A DNA stretch of 55,235 nucleotides from a virus: IMG/VR virus record IMGVR_UViG_3300015203_000003, positions 1 through 55,235 of that record; one strand, written 5' to 3'. The first letter of the stretch is position 1; each line of letters begins with the position of its first letter. The translations under genes were made by a program, and so were the position numbers. This document shows positions 1 to 55,235 of this stretch, in pieces. Under the pieces are notes generated by a model. It ran no database searches. It was not told the DNA's origin and worked only from the letters and a program-made list of their open reading frames with translations.

Positions 1-88
1 CGCGGCAACCAGTGGCACGGCAGCAACGGCTAGCGCCCTCTCCGGAACGAACGGCGCGGTGGCGGCGACGGTAACGGGCTCGAACGTC
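1..88. repeat. Terminal direct repeat, left copy (identical to 55148..55235)
   Basis: The first 88 nt read base for base the same as the last 88 nt. The repeat lies inside an open reading frame. Confidence 0.95.
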
Positions 89-44839: not shown

Positions 44840-47800
44840 ATGGCATTTGATCCAGATGCATTCTTGGGCGCGCAAAAGCAGGCAGAAGCGCCAGCGGCGG
44901 GATTCGATCCCGATTCGTTTCTGAAGAGCGACCGGCAGCCATTGGTTCAAGCTCCCTCTTTTGACCCCGTTTCCTACTACGGAGAATCCCCGAGCAAAGA
45001 GCGGATGGCAACCGCCGTGGCCGTCTCCAAGGAGCGGGCGAACAACGCGACTTTCATGGGAGATGCGGCCAGTTTCGGGAAGGGGCTGGTTGAAGGCATC
45101 CCATCGGCAGTAGCTGGGCTGGCAAAGGGCGTGGGCGGGCTCGCCAAAGGCGCGTACGATCAAATTGCAGGAACGCCCGAAGAAGCGGCACGCGACAGAG
45201 CCGAGGCGGTAGCAGCGGCACAAGCCGGAGCCGTGCAAGGATTCCACGGCCTCAAGAACGCCCTAACGCTCCCGGCGAGACTGATGCACCCCGACCGCGA
45301 CTTGAGCGATCAGGAATGGGAAGATCGCATTAATGACCAAGCGGCCTACAACTCGACCCTGAACGAGATCAAAAACGGGGGACTCAAAGGCTGGGCACAG
45401 AATCTGGCGCAAAGCCCCGAAGAACTGGCGAAAGCAGGTGTGCCGGTGCGTCCCGAAAACGTGGATCAAATGTCTTTCATTGGCGATCCGCGCACCTATC
45501 TCCTCGGCCCTGCGGCGGATGTAGCCGGGCCACTTATCGGACGAGCCATTACCGCGCCCATCCTGAAAACGGCAGCGAAAGCCGTGGGCGGCGTTGCCGA
45601 GGCGGCAGAACCAGCTACAGGCACCCTCGGGACACTGGCGGGCCTCGGGTATGCTCTTCACTCTGCATCACCGTTGACCGCTGGCCTCGTGTTTGCTGGG
45701 CGCATGGCAGGCAAAGCCGCCCCCGGCCTTGCGAAGATGCTGGGCGAAGCCGGTGAAGAAGCGGCTGGTATCGCTCCTCCTGAAATCCAATCCTTGGGAG
45801 CCAAAGCATTCAAGGCCGGTGCCACGGGAGCCGTTACAGGTGGCGTATTGGGACTTCCCTACGCAGCGGGAGCGGATACACCGGAGGAAGCGGGTGCGGC
45901 CATTGGCGGCGGTATCGGGCTCGGCGGAGCCATCGGTGCCGCAGGCGGAATCAAAAACGCGCGCGCCATCGACATTGCTGGCAAAGCCGGGGCCCTCGAA
46001 AGGGAGGGCGCAGCCAAGACCTACGGCAATGCGTGGGATGCCGTTTCGCAGCAATACATGGCCCAGCTTCCCGCCGAGGCGCAGCGGGCGATCAATGTCT
46101 TCAAGGGGCGCTACAACGGGATGCAGACGGCAAACGGCGACCCGGTTGAGATTCATGTGGCGGGCGGCGCGGACTATCAGCGGGCGATGGCGGAAAACCT
46201 GCCTGGAAAACAAGGGGCAGACTCGCGCGGCTTCATTTCCAAGGACGGGAACAAGATTTTCCTGAATGCGGACTACGGAAAGGCTCCGGGTGGGGCCTAC
46301 GAAACGATGTCCCATGAGGCAGGCGGTCACCTCACTGAATTTCTGGCCGACATCAGCCAAAAGCAGGACATTTCAACCCTTCGGGATGCGCTCAAGTCGT
46401 CTCTGTACGATTCGACATCGGCAGCGCCAAAGACGGGCTTTCAACGGTTCATCGACACCCAAAAGGCAGCCTTGAAAAAAGGCGGCGCATCGCCCCAGCT
46501 TCTCAGCAGCCTCGACAACGGCTACTTCGAGCGGGAATTCCTGGCGCAAACGGCTGTCAAGATTTTGCAGGGCCAGAACATCGCGGAATTCAGCCTCCCG
46601 CCGTCCATAAAGGCGAGGATCATGACCGGCGCCCGCCGCTGGATGCGCAGCCAAGGCGTTATGCCCGAGCGCGGGGCCGACATCGGCTTCGGCGGCAAAG
46701 AAATCAGCGAGATTACGGACCAGATGCGGAACATCCTGTATAAACAGGGTGCGCAGAGCGAAGCCTTGCGGACAGATCGAGCCAAGAACGGCGAGCCCCC
46801 GGCGAAGATCGGAGCGCGCATGCGGCAACTGGAGCGCATTCTGGCCCAGCCGCCGACCGCCAGCAGCACGACCGAAGAAGCCAAGACGTTCCAGGACGCG
46901 CAGAAGGAATACGAGAAGCTGAAGGCCCTCACGGCCCCCTCGACATTCCCAGCCGCCGGTCCCGCACCGGTTTCGCCCGGCGCTCCGCATGCGCCCGCAC
47001 CTGCCGTGCCAGCCGCCGGACCCGCGCCAGACACGCAAACCCTGATGGCACGCTCCGATGCGCTCGACGCTCTCCGCAGCAAGGCGCTTCAGGGCGTGGT
47101 GCCGAAGGAGCAGCACGAGGCGCGAGTGGACGCAGCGATTACCGCCGCGCAACAGGCTGGAATTCCCATCACAGCGGACAATCTTTTGACCCACGCCACT
47201 ACCGGGCGGTTTCAGGACGCGAAACCAACGATTTCGCCTCCCGCTGGCGAGAAAGCGAAGTTCACCGACGAAAGCGGCACGCCAAGAATCGTGACCGGAG
47301 TATCCGATCAGGCACCGCGCGTGGGCGACATCGTGGCGACAAGGGATGGCGAGATTCGCCGGGTCACATCCGCCCTGGGCGGGACTATCGACACGGCCCG
47401 CCCCATCGACCCGTTGAACGCCCGTGGCACGAAAACCCACAAGGCAGGGGATTACATCGTCCTCAATCACGACTACGACCAGACCACCCCCGCGGCACCA
47501 GCGGCCAAGCCATCCTTCACCATCGAGCAAAAGAACGGCGTATGGAACGTGGTGAACGAAAAGGGAGAAGTGATAAAGGGCGGGCTCGCCGATGAGGCGG
47601 CCGCCCGGCGCTCCATGGGACAACTTCTGCGCGTCAAAAAGAGTATCCCGGGTATTCCAGAGCACCCAGCAGGCGCACACGACTCTATCGCGGCCATCAA
47701 CGACTTGGGCGGGATACTTTCTAAAGGACGAGCGCCAGCCAACGTCAGCGGCAGCTACGACGACCAGCCGCAGATCATGAAGTCCGGGATTTACAACCGG

Positions 47801-50800
47801 CTCATGAGCGACAACGCGGATCATACACCGGATGAAGTGGCGCGACTGCTCGACGCCGAGGGGATTGGCGACGGCACGGTATCGGGGCTGTGGCAAACCA
47901 TCGAACGCGACATCAAGTCCCGACAAAGCCTTCGGGCACAGATGGACGCCGAACAGCGCCGCCAAAGAATCAATCCAAATGAACCGATCCCGACAGTTCC
48001 GGCGCAGCCAGCTACGCCAGTTGAAAGCGGTGGAGTGGCTGTGGCTGCACCGGCTGCCGAAAACATTCCAGCCCAAACTAATCCGAACCCAGGGCTATCC
48101 GAGGCCCTAAACACTGCCGCCGATGAAGCGGAGCGGACCATGCGCGCTTCGCCCGAGTTCGCGCGTCTCAAGGGTGGCACGAAAAACACGAAGGAACAGC
48201 GCCAGGCCCAAGAGATTGCCCGTGCACGACTGGATGCGATGGCCAAGGCACACGCTGGCACGGTTCCGGCTAACTCAAGCCTCGTGACGCTCAAAACCGA
48301 CCGCTTTAATCGCACAGGCATCTACGGGCAGACGATCAATACGAGCGATCCTTTCCACCAGGAGCTTTTGAACCGGGCTGGCTACGGTCCCGCCGATATT
48401 CAGCGGCTGGCCGAGATCCAGAAGAATCTCGGGCGCCCCATCGGGATCGAGTACCTCTCCGCACCGGAAACCCCGGGCGCAAAGGCTGAATTCGAAGGGC
48501 TGGACGCTCGCCAGCAGATCGCGGAACTGCGGCGGCGTGCCCAGGCTCAATCGACCGCCCAGGACCGGGCGGCAGGTGACAGCGCCGTACGGCGGGTAGC
48601 CAAATCCATCGTGCCCGAGGAGATTGTGTTCAACCCGGAGAGCAACAGCTTTTCCGTGCGCGGATTCTCCCCCGACAAATTCTTTTCCAACGTCAAAAAG
48701 GCGCTCCCCTGGCTCAAGGCGCATGGGATCGACTCTTACTCCGGAGTGAACGATCCACAGTTGATTACCGACCTGAACGGCATCGCCGAGAATCACGCCT
48801 ACGGCTGGCGCGGCAAAGGCGATGCGCCCGTGACCGGCACCCCATACTACCCGACGAAGCCGACTGAGGGCTACAAACCCTACACGGGAGGAGATAACCC
48901 GGAGACGTGGAAAGACCGCTTCGACGTGCTGAACGCGATGATAGGCGACACCACGGCCTACGATTTGAATGACAAGGGTGATCCAAAAAAGGGGAACCCG
49001 AAAGACGCGGAGGCGCGCAAGGCCAAGCAGGTGCTAGCCCGGCTTAACAGCCCATTCTTCGACCCCGATACCGGCGAGGTGAACCGCGTACGCGAGATGA
49101 TTCGCAAATCCGGCGACTTCAAATTCTCCGAGGCATCGGGATTCGAGCATGACGGGCCGAACGTGCTGGAAACGGCGCGGGAGACGCTGAAGCCCGACTT
49201 GATCGAGCGGGTGGGACCGCCCGACATCAAGAACGAGCACACCCTGCGACCATCTGGATTGCAGGACGGCGTGGTGGCGAAGATTGAGGACGTGCCGCGT
49301 TCAGATTTTACCGCCGCCGGATTCATGCCAGTAGAACACGAGGCCCAGGACTCCGAAGTGGATTCGCTCGGCTTCTATTCAAAGCTCCGCAACGTCATCG
49401 CATCGAAGGTTCCAAACCGCGCCCAACCCGCGCAGATTATGGCGACCCTTCGCAGCGCGGGCGTGAAGCAGGAGGAGATGGATTCGACGGGCTTACCCGA
49501 ATGGCTGAAGTCACAGGGTGGCCCCGTGACCAAGCAGGAGATTCAGGACTTTGTGAAGGGCGGCGGGGTACAGTTGCATGAGGTGCAAAAGGGTGGAGTA
49601 AAGCCAAAGGCAAGCGCTCCGTTGAGTGCGTGGATGCAGCAATACAACTCCGATCCACAGACAACGGGTGACTGGATGAAGCAATCGGCGCGGCTCGAAA
49701 AAGTTGGCCAGCAATGGCAGGCGGGAGGAAATACCGCCAAGGCAAATCAGTTTTTTGACCTTGCCGAAGAGTCCAATCGACTCGCCGAAGACCTTGAGAC
49801 GCCATCTGGCGGAAGCGGCGTAACCAAGTTCTCCCAATACGTCCTTCCCGGTGGCTCCAATTACAAGGAAGTGCTGTTGACGCTGCCGGAGAAGTCGAAC
49901 CAGCCGCAAGCGGAGCGATTGAAATTCGCGGCAGAAATGACGAAGAAATACGGCACCGATGGGTTTTATCCCAAGCTGACTGACGCCGAAAAAGCCCGGT
50001 TCAATGCGATCTCGGATACGGCGCAATCCGTCAACTTCAAATCCTCCCATTGGGACGAGCCCAACGTACTCGCCCACATCCGCCAAGCCGACCACACCGA
50101 CACCGAAGGCAACAAGGTTCGATTGATTGAGGAGATTCAATCCGACTGGCACCAGAAGGGGCGGAAGGAAGGGTATAGACCAGAAAAGGAAAAACAGCTT
50201 TCGGATATGGTATCCGAACGGGATGAATTGTCCCAGCGGATGGCCTCTTTGGAAAAAAACAGCCAAGAGTACATTAATCTTTGGGAGAAAAGATCAGATA
50301 TTCAATCCAAGATAAACGATCTCGGAAACGGCTCCGTGGGCGTACCCGACGCACCATTCAAAAAGACATGGGCCGAACTCGCCTTTAAGCGCGCCCTCCG
50401 CATGGCTGTTGACGATGGGGTAAACAAGATCGCGTGGACTCCCGGGCAAATCCAATCCGAGCGCTACTCACTGGAGAAGCACGTCAGCGACATCTACGCG
50501 AAACCGACCGACGGAAAATTCGACCTCACGGTCAACGCCAAAGACGGAACCACGATTTACGACACCGCGCGCACTGGACCCGTGGAAGCAAGCAAGCTCT
50601 CTGACCTTGTAGGTAAAGAGATGGCTCAAAAGATCGTCGAGCAAAAGGGCGAGCACACATACTCCGGCCTCGAATTGAAAGTGGGAGGCTCCGGCATGAA
50701 GGGCTTCTACGACCAGATTCTCCCCAGCTTCGTCTCTAAGTACGTGAAGCCGATGGGAGGCAAGGTGGAGACGACGCAACTTCAGACGGGCGCTCCGTCA

Positions 50801-51250
50801 CCCAGCCAACCCGGGATTGACGAAGATGGAAATTCGACGCTCCACACCACCGTCCACTCCGTCACCATCACCCCACAGATGCGCGAGGCGATACAGAAGG
50901 GCCAAGCGCAATTCATGCCGAACGAGGGACCGCCGACCGGGCTAGATTCCTCCTTGCCGCACCCGCTCCGACTCGCCGCCAAAGCCATCGGGCTCATTGA
51001 CGGACGCTCATGGGGAGACGCCCGCCAGTTCACCGCGCCCGAGAACGAGAAGCATAAGGCGTTCACCTTTTACCTAATGAACGGCGAGGGGCCGTCGAAG
51101 CTGCGCGAACGGTACGAGGAGAAGGCGGACCAGTTTGCAAAAGACGGCCAACCATTGCCCGCCGCTCCCAAAGCTCCACAAGCCCCATCCGCACCGACCG
51201 CGCCACCCGTGGCCGACACTCGCCGCTTTAGTGCCCTTCAATTCGCATGA
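44840..51250 (+). CDS. Giant (2136 aa) virion-associated, polyvalent-type protein
   Basis: Single uninterrupted ORF. N-terminal FDPDxFL repeats, Gly/Ala-rich hydrophobic zippers, and a C-terminal block (SSHWDEPNVLAHIR...IEEIQSDWHQKG, FKKTWAELAFKRAL...IAWTPGQIQ) that recalls modules of large polyvalent phage/plasmid proteins. Confidence 0.6.
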   Translation: MAFDPDAFLGAQKQAEAPAAGFDPDSFLKSDRQPLVQAPSFDPVSYYGESPSKERMATAVAVSKERANNATFMGDAASFGKGLVEGIPSAVAGLAKGVGGLAKGAYDQIAGTPEEAARDRAEAVAAAQAGAVQGFHGLKNALTLPARLMHPDRDLSDQEWEDRINDQAAYNSTLNEIKNGGLKGWAQNLAQSPEELAKAGVPVRPENVDQMSFIGDPRTYLLGPAADVAGPLIGRAITAPILKTAAKAVGGVAEAAEPATGTLGTLAGLGYALHSASPLTAGLVFAGRMAGKAAPGLAKMLGEAGEEAAGIAPPEIQSLGAKAFKAGATGAVTGGVLGLPYAAGADTPEEAGAAIGGGIGLGGAIGAAGGIKNARAIDIAGKAGALEREGAAKTYGNAWDAVSQQYMAQLPAEAQRAINVFKGRYNGMQTANGDPVEIHVAGGADYQRAMAENLPGKQGADSRGFISKDGNKIFLNADYGKAPGGAYETMSHEAGGHLTEFLADISQKQDISTLRDALKSSLYDSTSAAPKTGFQRFIDTQKAALKKGGASPQLLSSLDNGYFEREFLAQTAVKILQGQNIAEFSLPPSIKARIMTGARRWMRSQGVMPERGADIGFGGKEISEITDQMRNILYKQGAQSEALRTDRAKNGEPPAKIGARMRQLERILAQPPTASSTTEEAKTFQDAQKEYEKLKALTAPSTFPAAGPAPVSPGAPHAPAPAVPAAGPAPDTQTLMARSDALDALRSKALQGVVPKEQHEARVDAAITAAQQAGIPITADNLLTHATTGRFQDAKPTISPPAGEKAKFTDESGTPRIVTGVSDQAPRVGDIVATRDGEIRRVTSALGGTIDTARPIDPLNARGTKTHKAGDYIVLNHDYDQTTPAAPAAKPSFTIEQKNGVWNVVNEKGEVIKGGLADEAAARRSMGQLLRVKKSIPGIPEHPAGAHDSIAAINDLGGILSKGRAPANVSGSYDDQPQIMKSGIYNRLMSDNADHTPDEVARLLDAEGIGDGTVSGLWQTIERDIKSRQSLRAQMDAEQRRQRINPNEPIPTVPAQPATPVESGGVAVAAPAAENIPAQTNPNPGLSEALNTAADEAERTMRASPEFARLKGGTKNTKEQRQAQEIARARLDAMAKAHAGTVPANSSLVTLKTDRFNRTGIYGQTINTSDPFHQELLNRAGYGPADIQRLAEIQKNLGRPIGIEYLSAPETPGAKAEFEGLDARQQIAELRRRAQAQSTAQDRAAGDSAVRRVAKSIVPEEIVFNPESNSFSVRGFSPDKFFSNVKKALPWLKAHGIDSYSGVNDPQLITDLNGIAENHAYGWRGKGDAPVTGTPYYPTKPTEGYKPYTGGDNPETWKDRFDVLNAMIGDTTAYDLNDKGDPKKGNPKDAEARKAKQVLARLNSPFFDPDTGEVNRVREMIRKSGDFKFSEASGFEHDGPNVLETARETLKPDLIERVGPPDIKNEHTLRPSGLQDGVVAKIEDVPRSDFTAAGFMPVEHEAQDSEVDSLGFYSKLRNVIASKVPNRAQPAQIMATLRSAGVKQEEMDSTGLPEWLKSQGGPVTKQEIQDFVKGGGVQLHEVQKGGVKPKASAPLSAWMQQYNSDPQTTGDWMKQSARLEKVGQQWQAGGNTAKANQFFDLAEESNRLAEDLETPSGGSGVTKFSQYVLPGGSNYKEVLLTLPEKSNQPQAERLKFAAEMTKKYGTDGFYPKLTDAEKARFNAISDTAQSVNFKSSHWDEPNVLAHIRQADHTDTEGNKVRLIEEIQSDWHQKGRKEGYRPEKEKQLSDMVSERDELSQRMASLEKNSQEYINLWEKRSDIQSKINDLGNGSVGVPDAPFKKTWAELAFKRALRMAVDDGVNKIAWTPGQIQSERYSLEKHVSDIYAKPTDGKFDLTVNAKDGTTIYDTARTGPVEASKLSDLVGKEMAQKIVEQKGEHTYSGLELKVGGSGMKGFYDQILPSFVSKYVKPMGGKVETTQLQTGAPSPSQPGIDEDGNSTLHTTVHSVTITPQMREAIQKGQAQFMPNEGPPTGLDSSLPHPLRLAAKAIGLIDGRSWGDARQFTAPENEKHKAFTFYLMNGEGPSKLRERYEEKADQFAKDGQPLPAAPKAPQAPSAPTAPPVADTRRFSALQFA

Positions 51251-52596
51251 ACCTGAAATCAAAGACGGTACTGGTGTACGACCAGGGGGCCTATATTCAC
51301 ATTTGCTCGGCACTCGTGGGTCACTTCGATCGGGTACTCCTCTACGTCCCGTACCAAGAGCAATGGCCCGGCAGCTACCGAATGCTCATCGGGACCGGCA
51401 TCCCCGGAGTCGAAAGAATCTGCCCGCTGCTGCCCGGCAAAAATAAGGGGCTGGACTTCTGGGACGTGGTGAAGGACGTGGACCTGTTCATCTTCCCCGG
51501 TGCTGGCAGTGGGGATATTCAGGAGGAACTTCGCCGGCAAGGGAAACGAGTCTGGGGTTCGGGCCACGGTGACGACCTTGAGCTTTTCCGGTTCGAGACG
51601 AAGGAACTGCTGAAAAGCTTGGGCATCGAGCAGGCCGGTTACGAGAAAGTGATCGGCACCGAGGCGCTGAAAGCCCGGCTCAAGAACGAGAGCGGCACGA
51701 AACACATCAAACTCTCTGGCGGCCGAGGCGACCAGGAAACCTTTCACCACGAAGGCGATTACCGGGTAACGGAGGGCGTGATCCAAAACCTTGAAGGCCG
51801 TTTTGGGGTGAACCTGCTCAGGAAATACGAGTTCACCGTCGAAGACGACATTCCGGACGCCATCGAGATCGGTTCCGATCAATATTGCATCGATGGACAA
51901 TGGCCCCCGGAAATCACGGTCGGGAACGAGATTAAAGACTGTGGCTTCTGGTTGACCGTCATGGCGCTGAAGGATGCGCCGCCGCAAGTCACGCGACTCA
52001 TGCACGCGCTGGCGCCCCATCTGAAAAAGTACGGCTACAGGAACTTCTTCTCCACCGAAACGCGGGTGCCGAAGAAGGACCCTTCGAAATCGTACCCGAT
52101 TGATCTTACGGCCAGGATCGCCAGCCCTCCAGGTGAAACGATGATGCAAATGGCGTCGAACTGGCCGGAGATTTTCTGGTACGGCGCGGAAGGCATCATG
52201 GTCCCGATGAAGTTCGTGGCCAAGTTCGGCATCCAAGCCATGATTTCCTCCGAATGGGCGGGCGACGATTTGCAGGCCATCTACTTTCCGAAGGAACTGG
52301 AGCCGTGGGTTAAACTGCGCAATTCCTGCATGGCCGATGGCATCCACTACGTCATTCCCCAGCCGAACAAGATGCACGACATCGGGTACGTCGTGGCGGT
52401 GGACGACGATCCTCTCAAAATGGTCAAAGACCTGAAGGAGCGCGCCAGCCAGATCAAAGGCCAGAGCATCAAAATCAATATCGACAAAATCCCCGAGGCG
52501 CTTGCCACGGCGCACGAGGGGGAGAAAATGGGCATCAAATTCGGGAGCGCAAAACTTCCCGAGGTTGCCGAAGTGGCGAAAATCGTGAGAGGATAG
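51247..52596 (+). CDS. PurD-like ATP-grasp ligase
   Basis: ATGA overlap with the giant gene. The motif order matches PurD: KTVLVYDQG, VDLFIFPG...RVWGSG, HIKLSGGRGDQET, EFTVEDDIPDAIEIGSDQYCIDG, YPIDLTARIASPPGE. Confidence 0.6.
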   Translation: MNLKSKTVLVYDQGAYIHICSALVGHFDRVLLYVPYQEQWPGSYRMLIGTGIPGVERICPLLPGKNKGLDFWDVVKDVDLFIFPGAGSGDIQEELRRQGKRVWGSGHGDDLELFRFETKELLKSLGIEQAGYEKVIGTEALKARLKNESGTKHIKLSGGRGDQETFHHEGDYRVTEGVIQNLEGRFGVNLLRKYEFTVEDDIPDAIEIGSDQYCIDGQWPPEITVGNEIKDCGFWLTVMALKDAPPQVTRLMHALAPHLKKYGYRNFFSTETRVPKKDPSKSYPIDLTARIASPPGETMMQMASNWPEIFWYGAEGIMVPMKFVAKFGIQAMISSEWAGDDLQAIYFPKELEPWVKLRNSCMADGIHYVIPQPNKMHDIGYVVAVDDDPLKMVKDLKERASQIKGQSIKINIDKIPEALATAHEGEKMGIKFGSAKLPEVAEVAKIVRG

Positions 52597-52603
52597 GAAA
52601 ATT

Positions 52604-52873
52604 ATGAGCGATCAAACCGAACAGAAGAAACTCACCCCCGAGGAATTGAAGGACATCTGCCTGCAACTGAAAATCCCCGAAACCGGCCACATCGAGACGG
52701 ATAACCTTATCCGCCGCGCCCGATTTTTGGATCTGATGCAAGCCTCGCTTGGTCCACTCATACCGAAACTCAAGACTGTGGAAGGCTCCCCTCAAGGGCT
52801 TGACCCCGACCTGTGCCACAATCTCACGGCCCTGGCCGAGGAATACGCCCACGACCTTTTGCCGAGGAAATAA
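52604..52873 (+). CDS. Hypothetical protein
   Basis: 89 aa. TAATG overlap downstream. Confidence 0.5.
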   Translation: MSDQTEQKKLTPEELKDICLQLKIPETGHIETDNLIRRARFLDLMQASLGPLIPKLKTVEGSPQGLDPDLCHNLTALAEEYAHDLLPRK

Positions 52874-53394
52874 TGAGCGCAGACCGCGATGATCTTGCGG
52901 GGCAGAACCCGGCGGCATGGGCGGCTATGAAAAGGCAGGAGGCCAAGGCTTTTCGCCGAATCATCATCGAGGTAATCCCTCACACGGAACAGCGCCTTGG
53001 ACAGCCCGGGGATTGGTACACAGCGGCAGACGGGACGCGAGTGGTTCGAGTGAGCGACCTTGGAGACTGGCGTTTCAACTACCTTCTCGCCCGGCACGAG
53101 ATGGATGAGATGATGCTTTGTCAGCATGCCGGTATTTCCGTGGAGGCTGTGGACGGCTACGATTCCCGACCGGAGGCCAAGGATGACGATCCGGACAGCT
53201 TCTCCGGATACCCGGGCGCACCGTATCAGGAGCAGCACAATGACGCGATGGCTGCGGAATGGGTAATGTCCCGGCTCCTGAATGTGGCCTGGCAGAAATA
53301 CGGGGAGGCGTTCGAGAAACTGTGGCAGCGCAGGCCCGTGAAGCTGACGGAAGCGCCTCCTCGCAAAATGGTGGCCGATCAGGACAAAGGATAG
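52873..53394 (+). CDS. N4 gp49 / Sf6 gp66-like family protein (unknown function)
   Basis: HTEQRLGQPGDWYT, ARHEMDEMMLCQHAGISVEAVDGYD and GAPYQEQHNDAMAAE match my memory of that phage family. Confidence 0.5.
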   Translation: MSADRDDLAGQNPAAWAAMKRQEAKAFRRIIIEVIPHTEQRLGQPGDWYTAADGTRVVRVSDLGDWRFNYLLARHEMDEMMLCQHAGISVEAVDGYDSRPEAKDDDPDSFSGYPGAPYQEQHNDAMAAEWVMSRLLNVAWQKYGEAFEKLWQRRPVKLTEAPPRKMVADQDKG

Positions 53395-53416
53395 CCCGAA
53401 ATCTTTCCTGTTTTTT
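53380..53416 (+). terminator. Probable intrinsic terminator (imperfect stem + T6)
   Basis: CAGGACAAAGGAT / ATCTTTCCTG arms with two bulges, followed by TTTTTT. It overlaps the 3' end of the gene. Confidence 0.4.
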
Positions 53417-53420
53417 AAGC

Positions 53421-53457: not shown

Positions 53458-53721
53458 ATGACCGGCAATACTGGAAATCCCTTTATCTACGAGTGGGCTG
53501 GCAACCCGACCAACGCCAACATTAAGGCGCTGAATCCTCCCCAGGGAGCCCTCGTAATCGACACCACAACCGGCAACTGGTATCGAAAAACCAGCGCCGG
53601 GAACAACAGCGGCTACGCTCTGGTGAGCGATTCAAGCACCGCCATCATCGACCCCACCACGGGCTACGGCTACCAAATCACCATCAGCGGCGGCCAAATC
53701 GCAGCCACCCGCGTTTCCTAA
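53458..53721 (+). CDS. Fibre-anchor-like small protein, paralogue A
   Basis: The first ~50 aa (MTGNTGNPFIYEWAGNPTNANIKALNPPQGALVIDTTTGNWYRKTS) are closely similar to those of 54505..54804. Confidence 0.55.
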   Translation: MTGNTGNPFIYEWAGNPTNANIKALNPPQGALVIDTTTGNWYRKTSAGNNSGYALVSDSSTAIIDPTTGYGYQITISGGQIAATRVS

Positions 53722-54504: not shown

Positions 54505-54804
54505 ATGAAGGGGAACACTGGCAACGTCTACATTTACGAATGGGACGGGAATCCCACGAATGTCCAGATCGAGGCGTTGAATCCTCCGATTGGCGCCAAG
54601 GTAATTGATAGCATGACCGGGAATTGGTATCGGAAAACCTCACCTCTGAATGACAATTCTGGGTACGAGTTGATCGCAAACGGATCGTCCATAGGAATTT
54701 TTTACATCGGTCGGCATTCCCGATTTGTGCCAACCGGCACGGGCGTACGCCTTGAAACCTCGCCTGATGGCGTGACCTTTACCCCGCAGCAATCATGGCC
54801 TTAA
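54505..54804 (+). CDS. Fibre-anchor-like small protein, paralogue B
   Basis: MKGNTGNVYIYEWDGNPTNVQIEALNPPIGAKVIDSMTGNWYRKTS. It overlaps the fibre gene start by 10 nt. Confidence 0.55.
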   Translation: MKGNTGNVYIYEWDGNPTNVQIEALNPPIGAKVIDSMTGNWYRKTSPLNDNSGYELIANGSSIGIFYIGRHSRFVPTGTGVRLETSPDGVTFTPQQSWP

Positions 54805-55235
54805 AACGACTTCTTTTATTTCTCGTGCTCCTGATTGCCTGCGCATCGGCCTGGGGCAACACCACGATCTTGAGCGGCTCCGGTTCGGTTGTGCTCTCGG
54901 CGTCGGGTAGCGCGTTACAGGCGAATGGCCTGCCGGTCCAGACCGGGAGCAACACCTTCGATCCGCGCCTGACCGGCACCGGCGTGGCCGCGACTGGGGC
55001 CGGCGGCACGATCTTTTACACGAACGGAGTGCTGCCTGGGGCCCAGGTATCAGGCACCGTCCCAGCAGCCACGGCGAGCGGCAGTGCGACCGTCTCCGGC
55101 TCGGCAGCGCAGAGCGGCACGGCTGGGTACGCGGTGACGAGCGGCAGCGCGGCAACCAGTGGCACGGCAGCAACGGCTAGCGCCCTCTCCGGAACGAACG
55201 GCGCGGTGGCGGCGACGGTAACGGGCTCGAACGTC
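54795..55235 (+). CDS. Tail fibre protein, N-terminal part (open at the window end; continues at 89..1171 on the circle)
   Basis: ATG 54795 with no stop to the window end. Hydrophobic N-terminus MALKRLLLFLVLLIACASAWG, then Ser/Gly/Thr/Ala repeats. Confidence 0.75.
   Translation, partial: MALKRLLLFLVLLIACASAWGNTTILSGSGSVVLSASGSALQANGLPVQTGSNTFDPRLTGTGVAATGAGGTIFYTNGVLPGAQVSGTVPAATASGSATVSGSAAQSGTAGYAVTSGSAATSGTAATASALSGTNGAVAATVTGSNV
55148..55235. repeat. Terminal direct repeat, right copy (identical to 1..88)
   Basis: Base-for-base identity with nt 1-88. Confidence 0.95.

What the first reader, a model, noticed from the sequence alone, without database searches (positions are those of the whole stretch)
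51247..53394. PurD-like ATP-grasp enzyme translationally coupled to the giant virion protein, followed by two small conserved genes
The 449-aa product follows the PurD motif order: an N-terminal Rossmann-like KTVLVYDQG, then VDLFIFPG...RVWGSG, HIKLSGGRGDQET, EFTVEDDIPDAIEIGSDQYCIDG and YPIDLTARIASPPGE.

Its ATG overlaps the stop of the 2136-aa gene (ATGA at 51247-51250). It is followed by an 89-aa ORF and an N4 gp49/Sf6 gp66-like protein. The unit is closed by a probable terminator.

No purine-pathway context exists in this genome. An ATP-dependent carboxylate-amine ligase embedded among ejection and fibre genes suggests something else. It could ligate or modify a virion protein (the giant protein is the obvious substrate), a cell-envelope component or a small molecule at infection. 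I know of no described function for such a cluster.
Basis: partly seen in the sequence, partly recalled or inferred. Interest (0 to 1): 0.75.

Follow-up and report, generated by a model that had tools for sequence, protein, structure and literature searches.

The report
Phage PurD-like ligase with decarboxylase partners
The gene after the giant virion protein encodes a PurD-shaped ATP-dependent ligase from a large, undescribed phage family that sits in virion-gene modules, usually beside a small amino-acid decarboxylase, so it probably builds an amine-containing amide rather than purines.

Summary
The ORFs, the ATGA overlap with the 2136-aa gene and the quoted motifs are all real.

The 449-aa protein matches no Pfam, PHROG or NCBIfam model. 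A family profile hits only GAR synthetases (PurD) in the PDB. An AlphaFold model (pLDDT 95.9) matches PurD structures first. It lacks PurD's GGREHA and GPNTGGMG motifs and has no purine context, so it is not PurD.

The family is large: about 1,000 clusters at 50% identity and 248 IMG/VR contigs. It is absent from cultured phages and carries inteins at five or more conserved motifs.

Across 88 loci the recurrent neighbours are not giant proteins:
- an AdoMetDC-fold pyruvoyl proenzyme (41 loci), or a pyruvoyl arginine decarboxylase in a few;
- a ~125-aa HExxE protein (27 loci), which is the window's third gene and is not N4 gp49-like.

Some members are fused to HAD phosphatase or acylphosphatase domains. 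The position is always a virion module, either TerL–portal or next to polyvalent giant proteins. Giant-gene coupling is conserved in the window's own clade (4 of 4).

My best reading is an ATP-dependent ligase joining a decarboxylase-derived amine (agmatine type) to a carboxylate. The acceptor could be a small molecule or a virion protein and is unresolved. No terminator was confirmed.

The parts
44840..51250 (+). Giant 2136-aa protein (putative packaged/ejected virion protein) whose stop overlaps the ATP-grasp start
   Evidence: ORF. No Pfam hit at E<=0.01. Residues 1732-1879 match phrog_7348, annotated 'endolysin', at E=2e-12. Positional counterparts in the same clade (1706, 1936 and 2071 aa) carry Kinase-PolyVal (weak), LPD37 and T4_Y16D domains; only the 1706-aa protein of L001 was shown to be homologous to the window's giant (513 bits). 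The virion role is inferred from position after the portal and capsid genes.
51247..51250 (+). ATGA start/stop overlap between the giant gene and the ATP-grasp gene
   Evidence: Sequence GCATGAAC. The same 4-nt overlap occurs in three related genomes. Translational coupling is inferred, not shown.
51247..52596 (+). 449-aa PurD-like ATP-grasp enzyme, the core of the system
   Evidence: Profile versus PDB hits only PurD-type ligases. AF2 pLDDT 95.9. Foldseek top hits are GAR synthetases. hhalign to E. coli PurD is collinear over 315 columns. Invariant K155, R160, D211, E228, K230, D286, R290 and N305. Homologues number 248 IMG/VR contigs and about 1000 clusters at 50% identity.
52604..52873 (+). 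89-aa ORF, clade-specific small protein of unknown role
   Evidence: No family hit. jackhmmer over all fetched loci finds only the 87-aa gene at the same position in L001. Genes of 82-83 aa occupy the same slot in two further clade members, but homology was not checked there.
52873..53394 (+). 173-aa protein (alternative start M19 at 52927) of the 'c15' family: a ~125-aa core with invariant D47, H75, E79 and H122 (HExxE...H), a recurrent partner of the ATP-grasp
   Evidence: Homologues abut the ATP-grasp in 27 of 88 loci, including 7 of 8 ATP-grasp loci from the bacterial-genome scan, and also sit beside a second, divergent GARS_A-like ATP-grasp. Alignments. AF2 pLDDT 86. No significant PDB fold match, only weak zincin-like hits.
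53395..53420 (+).
   Evidence: Not found by the consensus scan. Fold z-score is -0.14.

Best explanation
The 449-aa protein is a catalytically intact ATP-grasp ligase derived from the PurD (glycinamide ribonucleotide synthetase) lineage that has left purine synthesis.

Proposed mechanism, in order:
1. It uses ATP to activate a carboxylate as an acyl phosphate.
2. It joins that carboxylate to a primary amine to form an amide.
3. Across the family the amine is supplied by a neighbouring self-processing pyruvoyl decarboxylase, most simply arginine to agmatine (or ornithine to putrescine).
4. In this window no decarboxylase is encoded, so the amine would come from the host.
5. The product is most likely a small cationic amide, a polyamine-type conjugate. 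In some relatives a fused HAD phosphatase or acylphosphatase would trim a phosphorylated intermediate.
6. The gene is transcribed and translated with the late virion genes, here coupled to the giant ejection-type protein, so the activity is present during head filling or travels with the packaged proteins.
7. The 173-aa HExxE protein is a dedicated partner, possibly a small metal-dependent hydrolase.

Shown: the fold, the conserved residues, the gene linkages and the fusions.
Inferred: the chemistry, the identity of the amine, the small-molecule acceptor, the timing and the biological purpose.
For: Fold and ancestry:
- The family profile hits only PurDs in the PDB.
- The AF2 model has pLDDT 95.9 and its top Foldseek hits are GAR synthetases, followed by biotin carboxylases and PurK, all small-molecule enzymes.
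- hhalign to E. coli PurD is collinear, with IDPCCRxGSPPxE aligned to IEFNCRFGDPE.
- A divergent paralogue beside a c15 gene scores on Pfam GARS_A.

Catalytic integrity:
- K155, R160, E228, K230, D286 and R290 are invariant.
- Inteins are inserted at five or more of exactly these motifs.

Amine supply:
- An AdoMetDC-fold proenzyme abuts the gene in 41 of 88 loci. Its cleavage Ser and catalytic Cys are invariant, it reaches up to 62.7 bits on Pfam AdoMet_dc, and its profile hits only AdoMetDC in the PDB.
- The unrelated pyruvoyl arginine decarboxylase PvlArgDC (E=4e-45) takes the same place in L014/L083.
- Phage AdoMetDC homologues are experimentally arginine or ornithine decarboxylases (PMC9992855).

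Small-molecule hint:
- N-terminal fusions occur to HAD phosphatase (PF00702, 33.6 bits) and to acylphosphatase (PF00708, 57 bits).

Precedent for ATP-grasp amidoligase plus HAD phosphatase:
- C. jejuni Cj1438C and Cj1435 (PMC11800379).

Late-module placement.
Against: - No biochemical data exist for any member.
- The window itself has no decarboxylase (hmmsearch of all ORFs), and 27 of 88 loci have neither partner.
- The canonical Mg-binding E-x-N is D-x-C/T here, so the chemistry could deviate.
- The small-molecule model gives no compelling reason for the strict virion-module position or for the recurrent adjacency to giant proteins.
- Three kinds of peptidase-like neighbours hint at a protein or peptide substrate: the zincin-like c15, a papain-family C1 peptidase, and a weak M48 match.
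- The main AdoMetDC-like clade is very divergent (23-27 bits on Pfam, no tblastn match in the phage collection), so its substrate is unknown.
Confidence: 0.4

Rival explanations
1. The chemistry is the same, but the carboxylate lies on a protein. The ligase would attach agmatine, putrescine or an amino acid to a C-terminus or a Glu/Asp side chain of a packaged virion protein (the giant or polyvalent protein, portal, scaffold or internal proteins). A peptidase-like partner might first expose the site.
For: - The location is always a virion module.
- An ORF of 1000 aa or more abuts the unit in 12 of the 16 loci that have one, and the giants come from unrelated families: ART-PolyVal, InPase, helicase/LPD38, LPD37.
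- The start/stop overlap with the giant gene is conserved in 4 of 4 clade members.
- Peptidase-type neighbours recur: c15 with an HExxE...H motif and weak zincin-like fold hits, Peptidase_C1 and a weak M48 match.
- From my own knowledge, tubulin-tyrosine ligase working with a carboxypeptidase is a precedent for an ATP-grasp/peptidase cycle.
Against: - The nearest structural relatives (PurD, biotin carboxylase, PurK) all act on small molecules. From my own knowledge, the known protein-modifying ATP-grasps belong to other clades (RimK, TTL, R2K).
- Most loci (36 of 48 with full flanks) have no giant neighbour.
- The HAD and acylphosphatase fusions fit small phosphorylated intermediates better.
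- The zincin assignment of c15 is not significant (best Foldseek E=0.046).
Confidence: 0.25
2. The enzyme performs carboxyphosphate or kinase-type chemistry, like PurK or biotin carboxylase. It would activate bicarbonate to carboxylate or carbamoylate the decarboxylase-derived amine, or it would simply phosphorylate a substrate, rather than ligate an organic acid.
For: - Biotin carboxylases and PurK follow PurD closely in the fold search.
- The Thermocrinis virus homologue was annotated as phosphoribosylaminoimidazole carboxylase.
- The fusion to an acylphosphatase domain and to HAD phosphatases fits labile phospho-anhydride or phospho-ester products.
Against: - Sequence profiles hit only PurD, never PurK or biotin carboxylase.
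- PurD's C-domain architecture is retained.
- The acylphosphatase fusion is a single cluster representative.
Confidence: 0.1
3. The enzyme is a packaged or very early effector delivered with the polyvalent protein to counter host defence, either by making or destroying a signalling or defence metabolite, or by depleting arginine or SAM together with the decarboxylase.
For: - It is encoded beside polyvalent proteins, which are predicted to be packaged and injected (PMC5512222; contexts).
- The CBASS inhibitor Acb3 lies two genes upstream in L071.
- Pyruvoyl enzymes need no external cofactor (established knowledge), which would suit packaging.
Against: - There is no similarity to any known anti-defence protein.
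- The gene is far more conserved and widespread than typical anti-defence genes: it was the only window gene with homologues in nearly all 83 loci.
- Inteins usually mark core enzymes rather than accessory effectors (general knowledge).
Confidence: 0.1
4. The enzyme takes part in nucleotide or DNA hypermodification. It would amidate a carboxylated or aminated base or nucleotide, with the HAD domain acting as a nucleotidase.
For: - PurD's natural amine substrate is a phosphoribosyl compound (established knowledge).
- HAD fusions include weak PNKP-phosphatase-like matches.
- The Aquificae virus loci that carry the homologue also encode nucleotide-metabolism genes: thymidylate kinase in L006, and thymidylate synthase and ribonucleotide reductase in L007.
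Against: - The PurD phosphoribosyl-binding N-terminal motif GGREHA is absent.
- The complete window genome shows no base-modification genes among its ten largest replication/early and packaging proteins, only an N6/N4 methylase.
- The gene sits in virion modules, not replication modules.
Confidence: 0.07
5. It is a genuine GAR synthetase, an auxiliary metabolic gene that boosts host purine synthesis.
For: - PurD is the best sequence-profile and structural match.
- One JGI homologue carries that name.
Against: - No Pfam GARS_N, GARS_A or GARS_C hit for the window protein.
- The GGREHA and GPNTGGMG motifs are missing, and RFGDPE is changed to RxxSPPxE.
- Identity to PurDs in structural alignments is 12-15%.
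- There are no other purine genes.
- The conserved partners are decarboxylases, not pur genes.
Confidence: 0.03

Closest known systems
PurD, glycinamide ribonucleotide synthetase (EC 6.3.4.13; Pfam GARS_N/GARS_A/GARS_C)
   Same: - The same multi-domain ATP-grasp architecture, collinear over about 315 columns.
- Conserved ATP-site Lys (K155) and the catalytic Arg of the E-F-N-x-R motif (R290).
   Different: - 12-15% identity in structural alignments.
- No Pfam GARS hit.
- The N-terminal GGREHA and the GPNTGGMG loop are absent.
- E-x-N is replaced by D-x-C/T, and GDPE by SPPxE.
- No purine context; the family is confined to phages and prophages, with decarboxylase or HExxE partners.
Phage AdoMetDC-derived pyruvoyl arginine/ornithine decarboxylases (Li et al. 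2023, PMC9992855)
   Same: - The partner gene in 41 of 88 loci is a ~125-aa class-1b AdoMetDC-fold proenzyme with the E-S cleavage site and the catalytic Cys.
- In L014/L083 the unrelated PvlArgDC takes the same position.
   Different: - That paper describes stand-alone polyamine genes and does not mention an ATP-grasp (0 occurrences).
- The clade here is very divergent, with no tblastn match in the phage collection.
- The window itself lacks the decarboxylase.
Campylobacter jejuni Cj1438C (TupA-like ATP-grasp amidoligase) with HAD phosphatase Cj1435 (PMC11800379)
   Same: The logic matches: an ATP-grasp forms an amide between a carboxylate and a small amine, and a HAD phosphatase then removes a phosphate. 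Here the HAD domain is fused to the ligase in several cluster representatives.
   Different: - A different ATP-grasp clade (TupA-like rather than PurD-like).
- The acceptor there is a capsular glucuronate.
- No homology was tested or implied.
Glutathionylspermidine synthetase/amidase and other polyamine-conjugating ligases (own knowledge; viral GspS clusters are mentioned in PMC9992855)
   Same: - ATP-dependent amide bond between a carboxylate and a polyamine-type amine.
- The synthetase is paired with a hydrolase, which is a possible analogy to c15.
   Different: - Unrelated at sequence level.
- Not tested here. This is an analogy only.
Other viral ATP-grasp proteins (TTL-like, RimK-type, Ddl, TupA-like) in BFVD
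   Same: A shared ATP-grasp core (E down to 1e-8).
   Different: - The best TM-score is only 0.37-0.44.
- None has the PurD-type architecture.
- The family is therefore not represented among catalogued viral proteins.

Membership tests
ATP-grasp superfamily | Characteristic multi-domain alpha/beta fold that clasps ATP | tested here: met
   AF2 pLDDT 95.9 and pTM 0.94. 605 PDB matches at E<=0.001; all 50 listed are ATP-grasp enzymes.
ATP-grasp superfamily | Conserved Lys before the flexible Gly-rich loop that binds the ATP phosphates | tested here: met
   K155 is invariant in 57 sequences. It aligns to the K of PurD's IVIKADGLAAGKG.
ATP-grasp superfamily | Mg-binding E/D-x-N motif followed by a catalytic Arg | tested here: inconclusive
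   D286 and R290 are invariant, but the Asn position is Cys (family consensus) or Thr (window): IDLTAR versus PurD IEFNCR.
PurD / GAR synthetase | Passes the Pfam GARS_N, GARS_A and GARS_C gathering thresholds | tested here: not met
   No Pfam hit at E<=1 for the window protein. Only a divergent paralogue reaches 24.4 bits on GARS_A, against a threshold of 27.
PurD / GAR synthetase | N-terminal G-G-R-E-H-A motif and the GPNTGGMG loop (substrate and active-site loops; my own knowledge of PurD, read against the E. coli PurD sequence) | tested here: not met
   The window has VLVYDQGAYIHICSAL where E. coli PurD has VLVIGNGGREHALAWKA (from my own recall of its N-terminus; the alignment starts at PurD residue 50). 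The family consensus GIExKDxGYxG replaces GDKDTGPNTGGMG.
PurD / GAR synthetase | Occurs with other purine-biosynthesis genes or complements purD | tested here: not met
   The complete 55.1-kb genome has no pur genes among its large ORFs. Complementation cannot be tested with these tools.
N4 gp49 / Sf6 gp66 family (claimed for the 173-aa protein) | Sequence or profile similarity to N4 gp49 | tested here: not met
   hhalign probability 0.2%. N4 gp49 itself is Tad2-like, PF11195. None of 16 c15 members hits that or a related Pfam family.
Zincin-like metallopeptidase (considered for the 173-aa c15 protein) | HExxH (or a variant) on an active-site helix after a small beta-sheet, with a third ligand on a later helix, and a significant fold match | tested here: inconclusive
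   The motif is H75-E76-x-x-E79 plus H122, all invariant or nearly so. The model has three strands followed by helices. The best PDB hits are not significant: E>=0.046, with CapP at probability 0.75, plus PprI and SPRTN.
Class 1b AdoMetDC-fold pyruvoyl enzymes (partner gene in related loci, absent from the window) | E-S self-cleavage site, catalytic Cys, and a Pfam AdoMet_dc match | tested here: met
   S69 and C89 are invariant and E68 is conserved in at least 90%. PF02675 scores 62.7 bits for L036 and 27.3 bits for L003 against a threshold of 25. The profile hits only AdoMetDC in the PDB, E=1.4e-6. Self-cleavage and substrate cannot be tested here.
Polyvalent (packaged, injected) giant proteins of Iyer et al. 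2017 (for the 2136-aa neighbour) | Contains recognised PolyVal/LPD domains and is encoded in the head module | tested here: inconclusive
   The window protein has no Pfam hit. Positional counterparts in the clade carry LPD37, T4_Y16D and a weak Kinase-PolyVal match. The position after the portal and capsid genes fits.

The most novel reading that the evidence does not exclude
This would be a previously unrecognised virion-linked 'polyamination' system. A PurD-derived ATP-grasp, fed by a phage pyruvoyl decarboxylase, would covalently attach agmatine or putrescine-type amines to packaged proteins (giant or polyvalent ejection proteins, portal or internal proteins). Alternatively it would make a dedicated polycationic amide that is co-packaged with the DNA. 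Either way, thousands of uncultivated soil and freshwater podophages would have their own charge-neutralising or ejection-priming chemistry.
Probability: 0.2. Interest if true: 0.85.

Novelty: new variant of a known kind. Interest (0 to 1): 0.66.

Why it matters
- This is one of the better-conserved enzyme genes in a broad set of uncultivated tailed phages. It spans about 1,000 clusters at 50% identity, 248 IMG/VR contigs, and prophages in Proteobacteria and Binataceae MAGs.
- It has no Pfam, PHROG or NCBIfam model, no cultured representative and no literature that I could find.
- Its tight linkage to two unrelated kinds of pyruvoyl decarboxylase extends the recently described phage polyamine enzymes (Li et al. 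2023) by a downstream ATP-dependent step. That points to a phage-specific amine conjugate or protein modification made at the time of virion assembly.
- The question is directly testable with recombinant enzymes.
- It would change how stand-alone 'speD-like' genes in phage genomes are interpreted.
- The intein-rich gene could also serve as a marker for this phage group.

Tried and rejected
- Single-sequence searches of all three proteins against Pfam, PHROGs, NCBIfam and the PDB gave nothing. Only profiles and structure prediction worked.
- The N4 gp49/Sf6 gp66 idea was tested and rejected.
- The terminator was tested and not supported.
- The giant protein as universal partner was rejected by the survey.
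- I looked for an AdoMetDC-like gene anywhere in the window and found none.
- The 89-aa ORF as a widespread partner or carrier protein was rejected. Its only sequence-confirmed homologue is in L001.
- True fusion of c15 to the ligase is doubtful. P0197 looks like a frameshifted read-through by eye.
- Searches for cultured-phage carriers of the ligase, of c15, of the main AdoMetDC-like clade and of the divergent ligase found only metagenomic records.
- The PDB profile and fold searches for c15 gave no significant match.
- The 281-367-aa protein upstream in the MAG loci looked glycosyltransferase-like by eye but has no Pfam hit.
- The first genome-collection scan with the 57-sequence alignment failed for lack of a conserved stretch. 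It was repeated with 15 sequences.
It was redone with database homologues.
- The long antisense ORF 51259-52515 (418 aa) is a shadow of the high-GC coding strand. It is 'conserved' only because it lies inside the gene.

Full report
**1. Checking the observation**

The window is a complete, circularly assembled genome. Bases 1-88 repeat exactly at 55148-55235, giving about 55.1 kb at 57% G+C.

The region contains, all on the + strand:
- a 2136-aa ORF (44840-51250);
- a 449-aa ORF (51247-52596);
- an 89-aa ORF (52604-52873);
- a 173-aa ORF (ATG 52873 to 53394; the mechanical ORF starts at GTG 52813).

The giant gene's TGA and the next ATG share ATGA at 51247-51250. The 89-aa stop and the next ATG overlap as TAATG.

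No + strand terminator is found after 53394 by the consensus scan. The region folds no better than shuffled sequence (z = -0.14).

**2. What the 449-aa protein is**

It matches nothing in Pfam, PHROGs, NCBIfam or the PDB as a single sequence.

A database search gave 101 homologues. The closest is 47% identical and almost all are unnamed. A 57-sequence alignment has invariant K155, R160, D211, E228, K230, D286, R290 and N305.

Three lines of evidence agree on a PurD-like fold:
- The profile hits only phosphoribosylamine-glycine ligases (PurD) at meaningful E-values in the PDB. 2yw2 scores 2e-8, five more PurDs score up to 0.03, and the matches are in two collinear stretches.
- The AlphaFold model is very confident (pLDDT 95.9, pTM 0.94).
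- The model's 13 best Foldseek matches in the PDB are all GAR synthetases (E 6e-19 to 7e-17, TM 0.61-0.73). Biotin carboxylases and PurK follow.

hhalign against E. coli PurD aligns 315 columns collinearly (E=2.4e-4). It places family IDPCCRxGSPPxE (window IDLTARIASPPGE) on PurD IEFNCRFGDPE, and K155 on the Lys of IVIKADG.

The fold claim is therefore correct, but membership of PurD proper fails:
- there is no GARS Pfam hit;
- the GGREHA and GPNTGGMG motifs are missing;
- the Mg-ligand Asn is Cys or Thr;
- the genome has no purine genes.

The genome's larger ORFs include ERF, a DnaC-like loader, an MmcB-like nuclease, a DEAD helicase, an N6/N4 methylase, TerL, an SU10/P22-type portal and a major head protein.

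**3. How big the family is and where it lives**

- A full HMMER scan of 1.84 billion cluster representatives finds 1,781 proteins at E<=1e-3 and 1,014 at E<=1e-30.
- IMG/VR holds 248 contigs with a relative.
- Among 50,697 GenBank phage records, only two metagenome-derived Aquificae viruses match, at 26-28% identity.
- BFVD contains no structural relative better than TM 0.44.
- In the genome collection the gene occurs in prophage-like stretches of soil and peat MAGs: Proteobacteria, Binataceae, Xanthobacteraceae and Caballeronia. A frameshifted copy lies between TerL and a putative portal gene (assigned by eye) in the Bradyrhizobium oligotrophicum S58 E20 chromosome.
- About a dozen representatives of 758-793 aa carry inteins inserted at five or more different sites. 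Each site lies inside an invariant motif: after R-G-D162, at D211-C213, after K230-D231, after I-D286-x-x, and after R290. This is typical of strongly constrained enzymes.

**4. What travels with it**

I BLASTed every window ORF against the 83 fetched loci. Only the ligase (83 of 83) and the 173-aa ORF (14 loci) recur. The giant protein has a homologue in a single locus.

Clustering of neighbours and HMM searches show two partner families that abut or overlap the ligase gene.

Partner 'c1' (41 of 88 loci):
- It is a ~125-aa protein with the motif QPITES-FLALDTWPD...CSC.
- Members reach Pfam AdoMet_dc (62.7, 27.3 and 23.6 bits).
- The family profile hits only AdoMetDC proenzymes in the PDB (E=1.4e-6).
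- The self-cleavage Ser and the catalytic Cys are invariant.

Partner 'c15' (27 of 88 loci, 7 of them with both partners):
- It is a ~125-aa protein with invariant D47, H75, E79 and H122.
- The window's 173-aa protein belongs to this family.

Further observations on partners:
- In L014/L083 the adjacent gene is instead a pyruvoyl-dependent arginine decarboxylase (PF01862, E=4e-45). This is non-homologous displacement by an enzyme of the same cofactor class.
- c15 also accompanies a second, divergent ligase that scores on Pfam GARS_A (L100).
- c15 follows the ligase in 7 of the 8 ATP-grasp loci from the bacterial-genome scan.
- Several cluster representatives carry an N-terminal HAD phosphatase domain (PF00702, 33.6 bits; DxDGT motifs). 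One carries an acylphosphatase (PF00708, 57 bits).
- The window, although a complete genome, has no c1 gene.

**5. Position in the genome**

- The commonest arrangement is TerL, small genes, c1, ligase, P22-like portal, scaffold, major capsid protein.
- Other arrangements are portal-ligase-c15-scaffold (L099 and the MAG loci) and portal, two small genes, ligase in the Aquificae viruses.
- A second recurrent setting is among giant 'polyvalent' proteins. Examples: an InPase protein, c1, ligase, then a 2,718-aa or 3,060+-aa helicase/LPD38 giant; ART-PolyVal giants; a PI3/PI4-kinase giant.
- Of 48 loci with at least 4 kb on both sides, 16 contain an ORF of 1000 aa or more, and in 12 it lies within 700 nt of the ligase unit.
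- In the window's own clade (42-47% identity) the order giant gene, 4-nt overlap, ligase, 82-89-aa gene holds in 4 of 4 genomes. Their giant proteins carry LPD37, T4_Y16D or a weak Kinase-PolyVal domain.

So the linkage to virion genes is general. The linkage to giant proteins is real but partial, and it involves unrelated giants.

**6. The two small genes**

The 89-aa ORF has a sequence-confirmed homologue only in L001, and no family match.

The 173-aa protein is not N4 gp49-like:
- N4 gp49 is a Tad2-like protein.
- hhalign gives 0.2% probability.
- None of 16 members hits such a Pfam model. Only a weak resemblance to the DtxR metal-binding helix appears.

Its AlphaFold model (pLDDT 86) shows three strands, then a helix carrying H75-E76-x-x-E79, and a later helix carrying H122. 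Foldseek finds no significant PDB match. The least bad hits are zincin-type proteases (CapP, PprI, SPRTN). A small metal-dependent hydrolase is a hypothesis, no more.

**7. Mechanism**

Shown:
- a PurD-type ATP-grasp fold with conserved ATP-site and catalytic residues;
- obligatory-looking linkage to pyruvoyl decarboxylases of two folds and/or to c15;
- fusions to phosphatases;
- placement in late or virion operons.

From established ATP-grasp chemistry, the enzyme should form an acyl phosphate from a carboxylate and pass the acyl group to an amine.

Pyruvoyl decarboxylases need a free alpha-amino group. They therefore act on free amino acids or SAM, and they yield primary amines. Phage AdoMetDC homologues have been shown experimentally to be arginine or ornithine decarboxylases (PMC9992855). 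PvlArgDC makes agmatine.

The most economical reading is that the ligase couples an agmatine or putrescine-type amine to a carboxylate. Where the phage lacks the decarboxylase, as here, the host would supply the amine.

The PurD/biotin carboxylase/PurK kinship and the HAD and acylphosphatase fusions favour a small-molecule acceptor. A precedent is the Cj1438C amidoligase with the Cj1435 HAD phosphatase (PMC11800379).

The virion-module position, the giant-protein adjacency and the peptidase-type neighbours keep a protein acceptor alive as the main rival. Those neighbours are c15, Peptidase_C1 in L090 and L094, and a weak M48 match in L005. Polyvalent proteins are thought to be packaged and injected (PMC5512222), so an injected-effector role is also possible.

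I found no paper linking an ATP-grasp to these decarboxylases or to polyvalent proteins.

**8. Verdict**

The interpretation needs redirecting, from 'giant-protein modifier next to an N4 gp49-like gene' to 'core enzyme of a widespread, undescribed phage ligase/decarboxylase/HExxE module housed in virion operons'.

It is a new family and a new gene association within a known enzyme superfamily. Its product and purpose are still unknown.

Noticed in passing
window 1-88 and 55148-55235: An exact 88-bp terminal overlap shows the contig is a circular assembly, so this is a complete ~55.1-kb genome. The ORF running off the end (54795-55235) may continue across the junction into the start of the window; I did not check the reading frame. 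If it does, the ligase cluster is followed by tail-fibre-like genes that wrap around.
   Followed up: partly
window 53458-53721 and 54505-54804 (also L001 11658-12344): Two small ORFs share a near-identical N-terminal module (TGNTGNPFIYEWAGNPTN...TGNWYRKTS versus KGNTGNVYIYEWDGNPTN...TGNWYRKTS). A related N-terminus heads a 228-aa protein in the closest relative. This looks like duplicated tail-fibre adaptor or anchor cassettes.
   Followed up: no
homologues P0103, P0116, P0119, P0149, P0153, P0176, P0185, P0187, P0220, P0230, P0095, P0069: Inteins (with LAGLIDADG or intein-splicing Pfam domains where annotated) are inserted at five or more different invariant motifs of the ligase family.
   Followed up: yes
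homologues P0113, P0151, P0154, P0164, P0202 and P0150: N-terminal fusions of the ligase to small HAD-type phosphatase domains (two sequence types) and, once, to an acylphosphatase domain.
   Followed up: partly
L071 9018-9761: A CBASS inhibitor Acb3 homologue (PF25187, E=1e-48) lies two genes upstream of the ligase in one viral contig.
   Followed up: no
L090-L094 and L097 (MAG contigs of 130-180 kb): Short islands contain a P22-like portal, an unknown 281-367-aa protein, sometimes a papain-family C1 peptidase, the ligase, c15 and a scaffold-like protein. They are flanked by ordinary bacterial metabolic genes (assigned by eye). L091, and L097 by similarity to it, also carry what looks by eye like an integrase gene. 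They appear to be prophage remnants or satellite-like elements that have kept the ligase pair.
   Followed up: partly
L095 (Bradyrhizobium oligotrophicum S58 strain E20, CP192619, about 5.73 Mb): This is the only cultured-strain copy found. The ligase gene is frameshifted in its 5' part and runs in frame into a C-terminal extension that looks RyR-domain-like by eye. TerL lies upstream and a putative portal gene (assigned by eye) downstream.
   Followed up: partly
window 44840-51250, residues 1732-1879: The only library match of the giant protein is a segment similar to phrog_7348, annotated 'endolysin' (E=2e-12). This suggests a cell-wall-degrading domain typical of ejection proteins.
   Followed up: no
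window 51259-52515 (- strand): A 418-aa antisense ORF spans almost the whole ligase gene and appears 'conserved' in 32 loci. It is a shadow ORF of the G+C-rich coding strand, not a gene.
   Followed up: yes
L100 8699-10036 and MW202796.1 42206-43423: A second, more PurD-like ATP-grasp subfamily (GARS_A 24 bits; EPTMRFG motif) also sits next to a c15 gene, after the capsid gene. Its only GenBank phage match is an unannotated spring-water metagenomic phage.
   Followed up: partly
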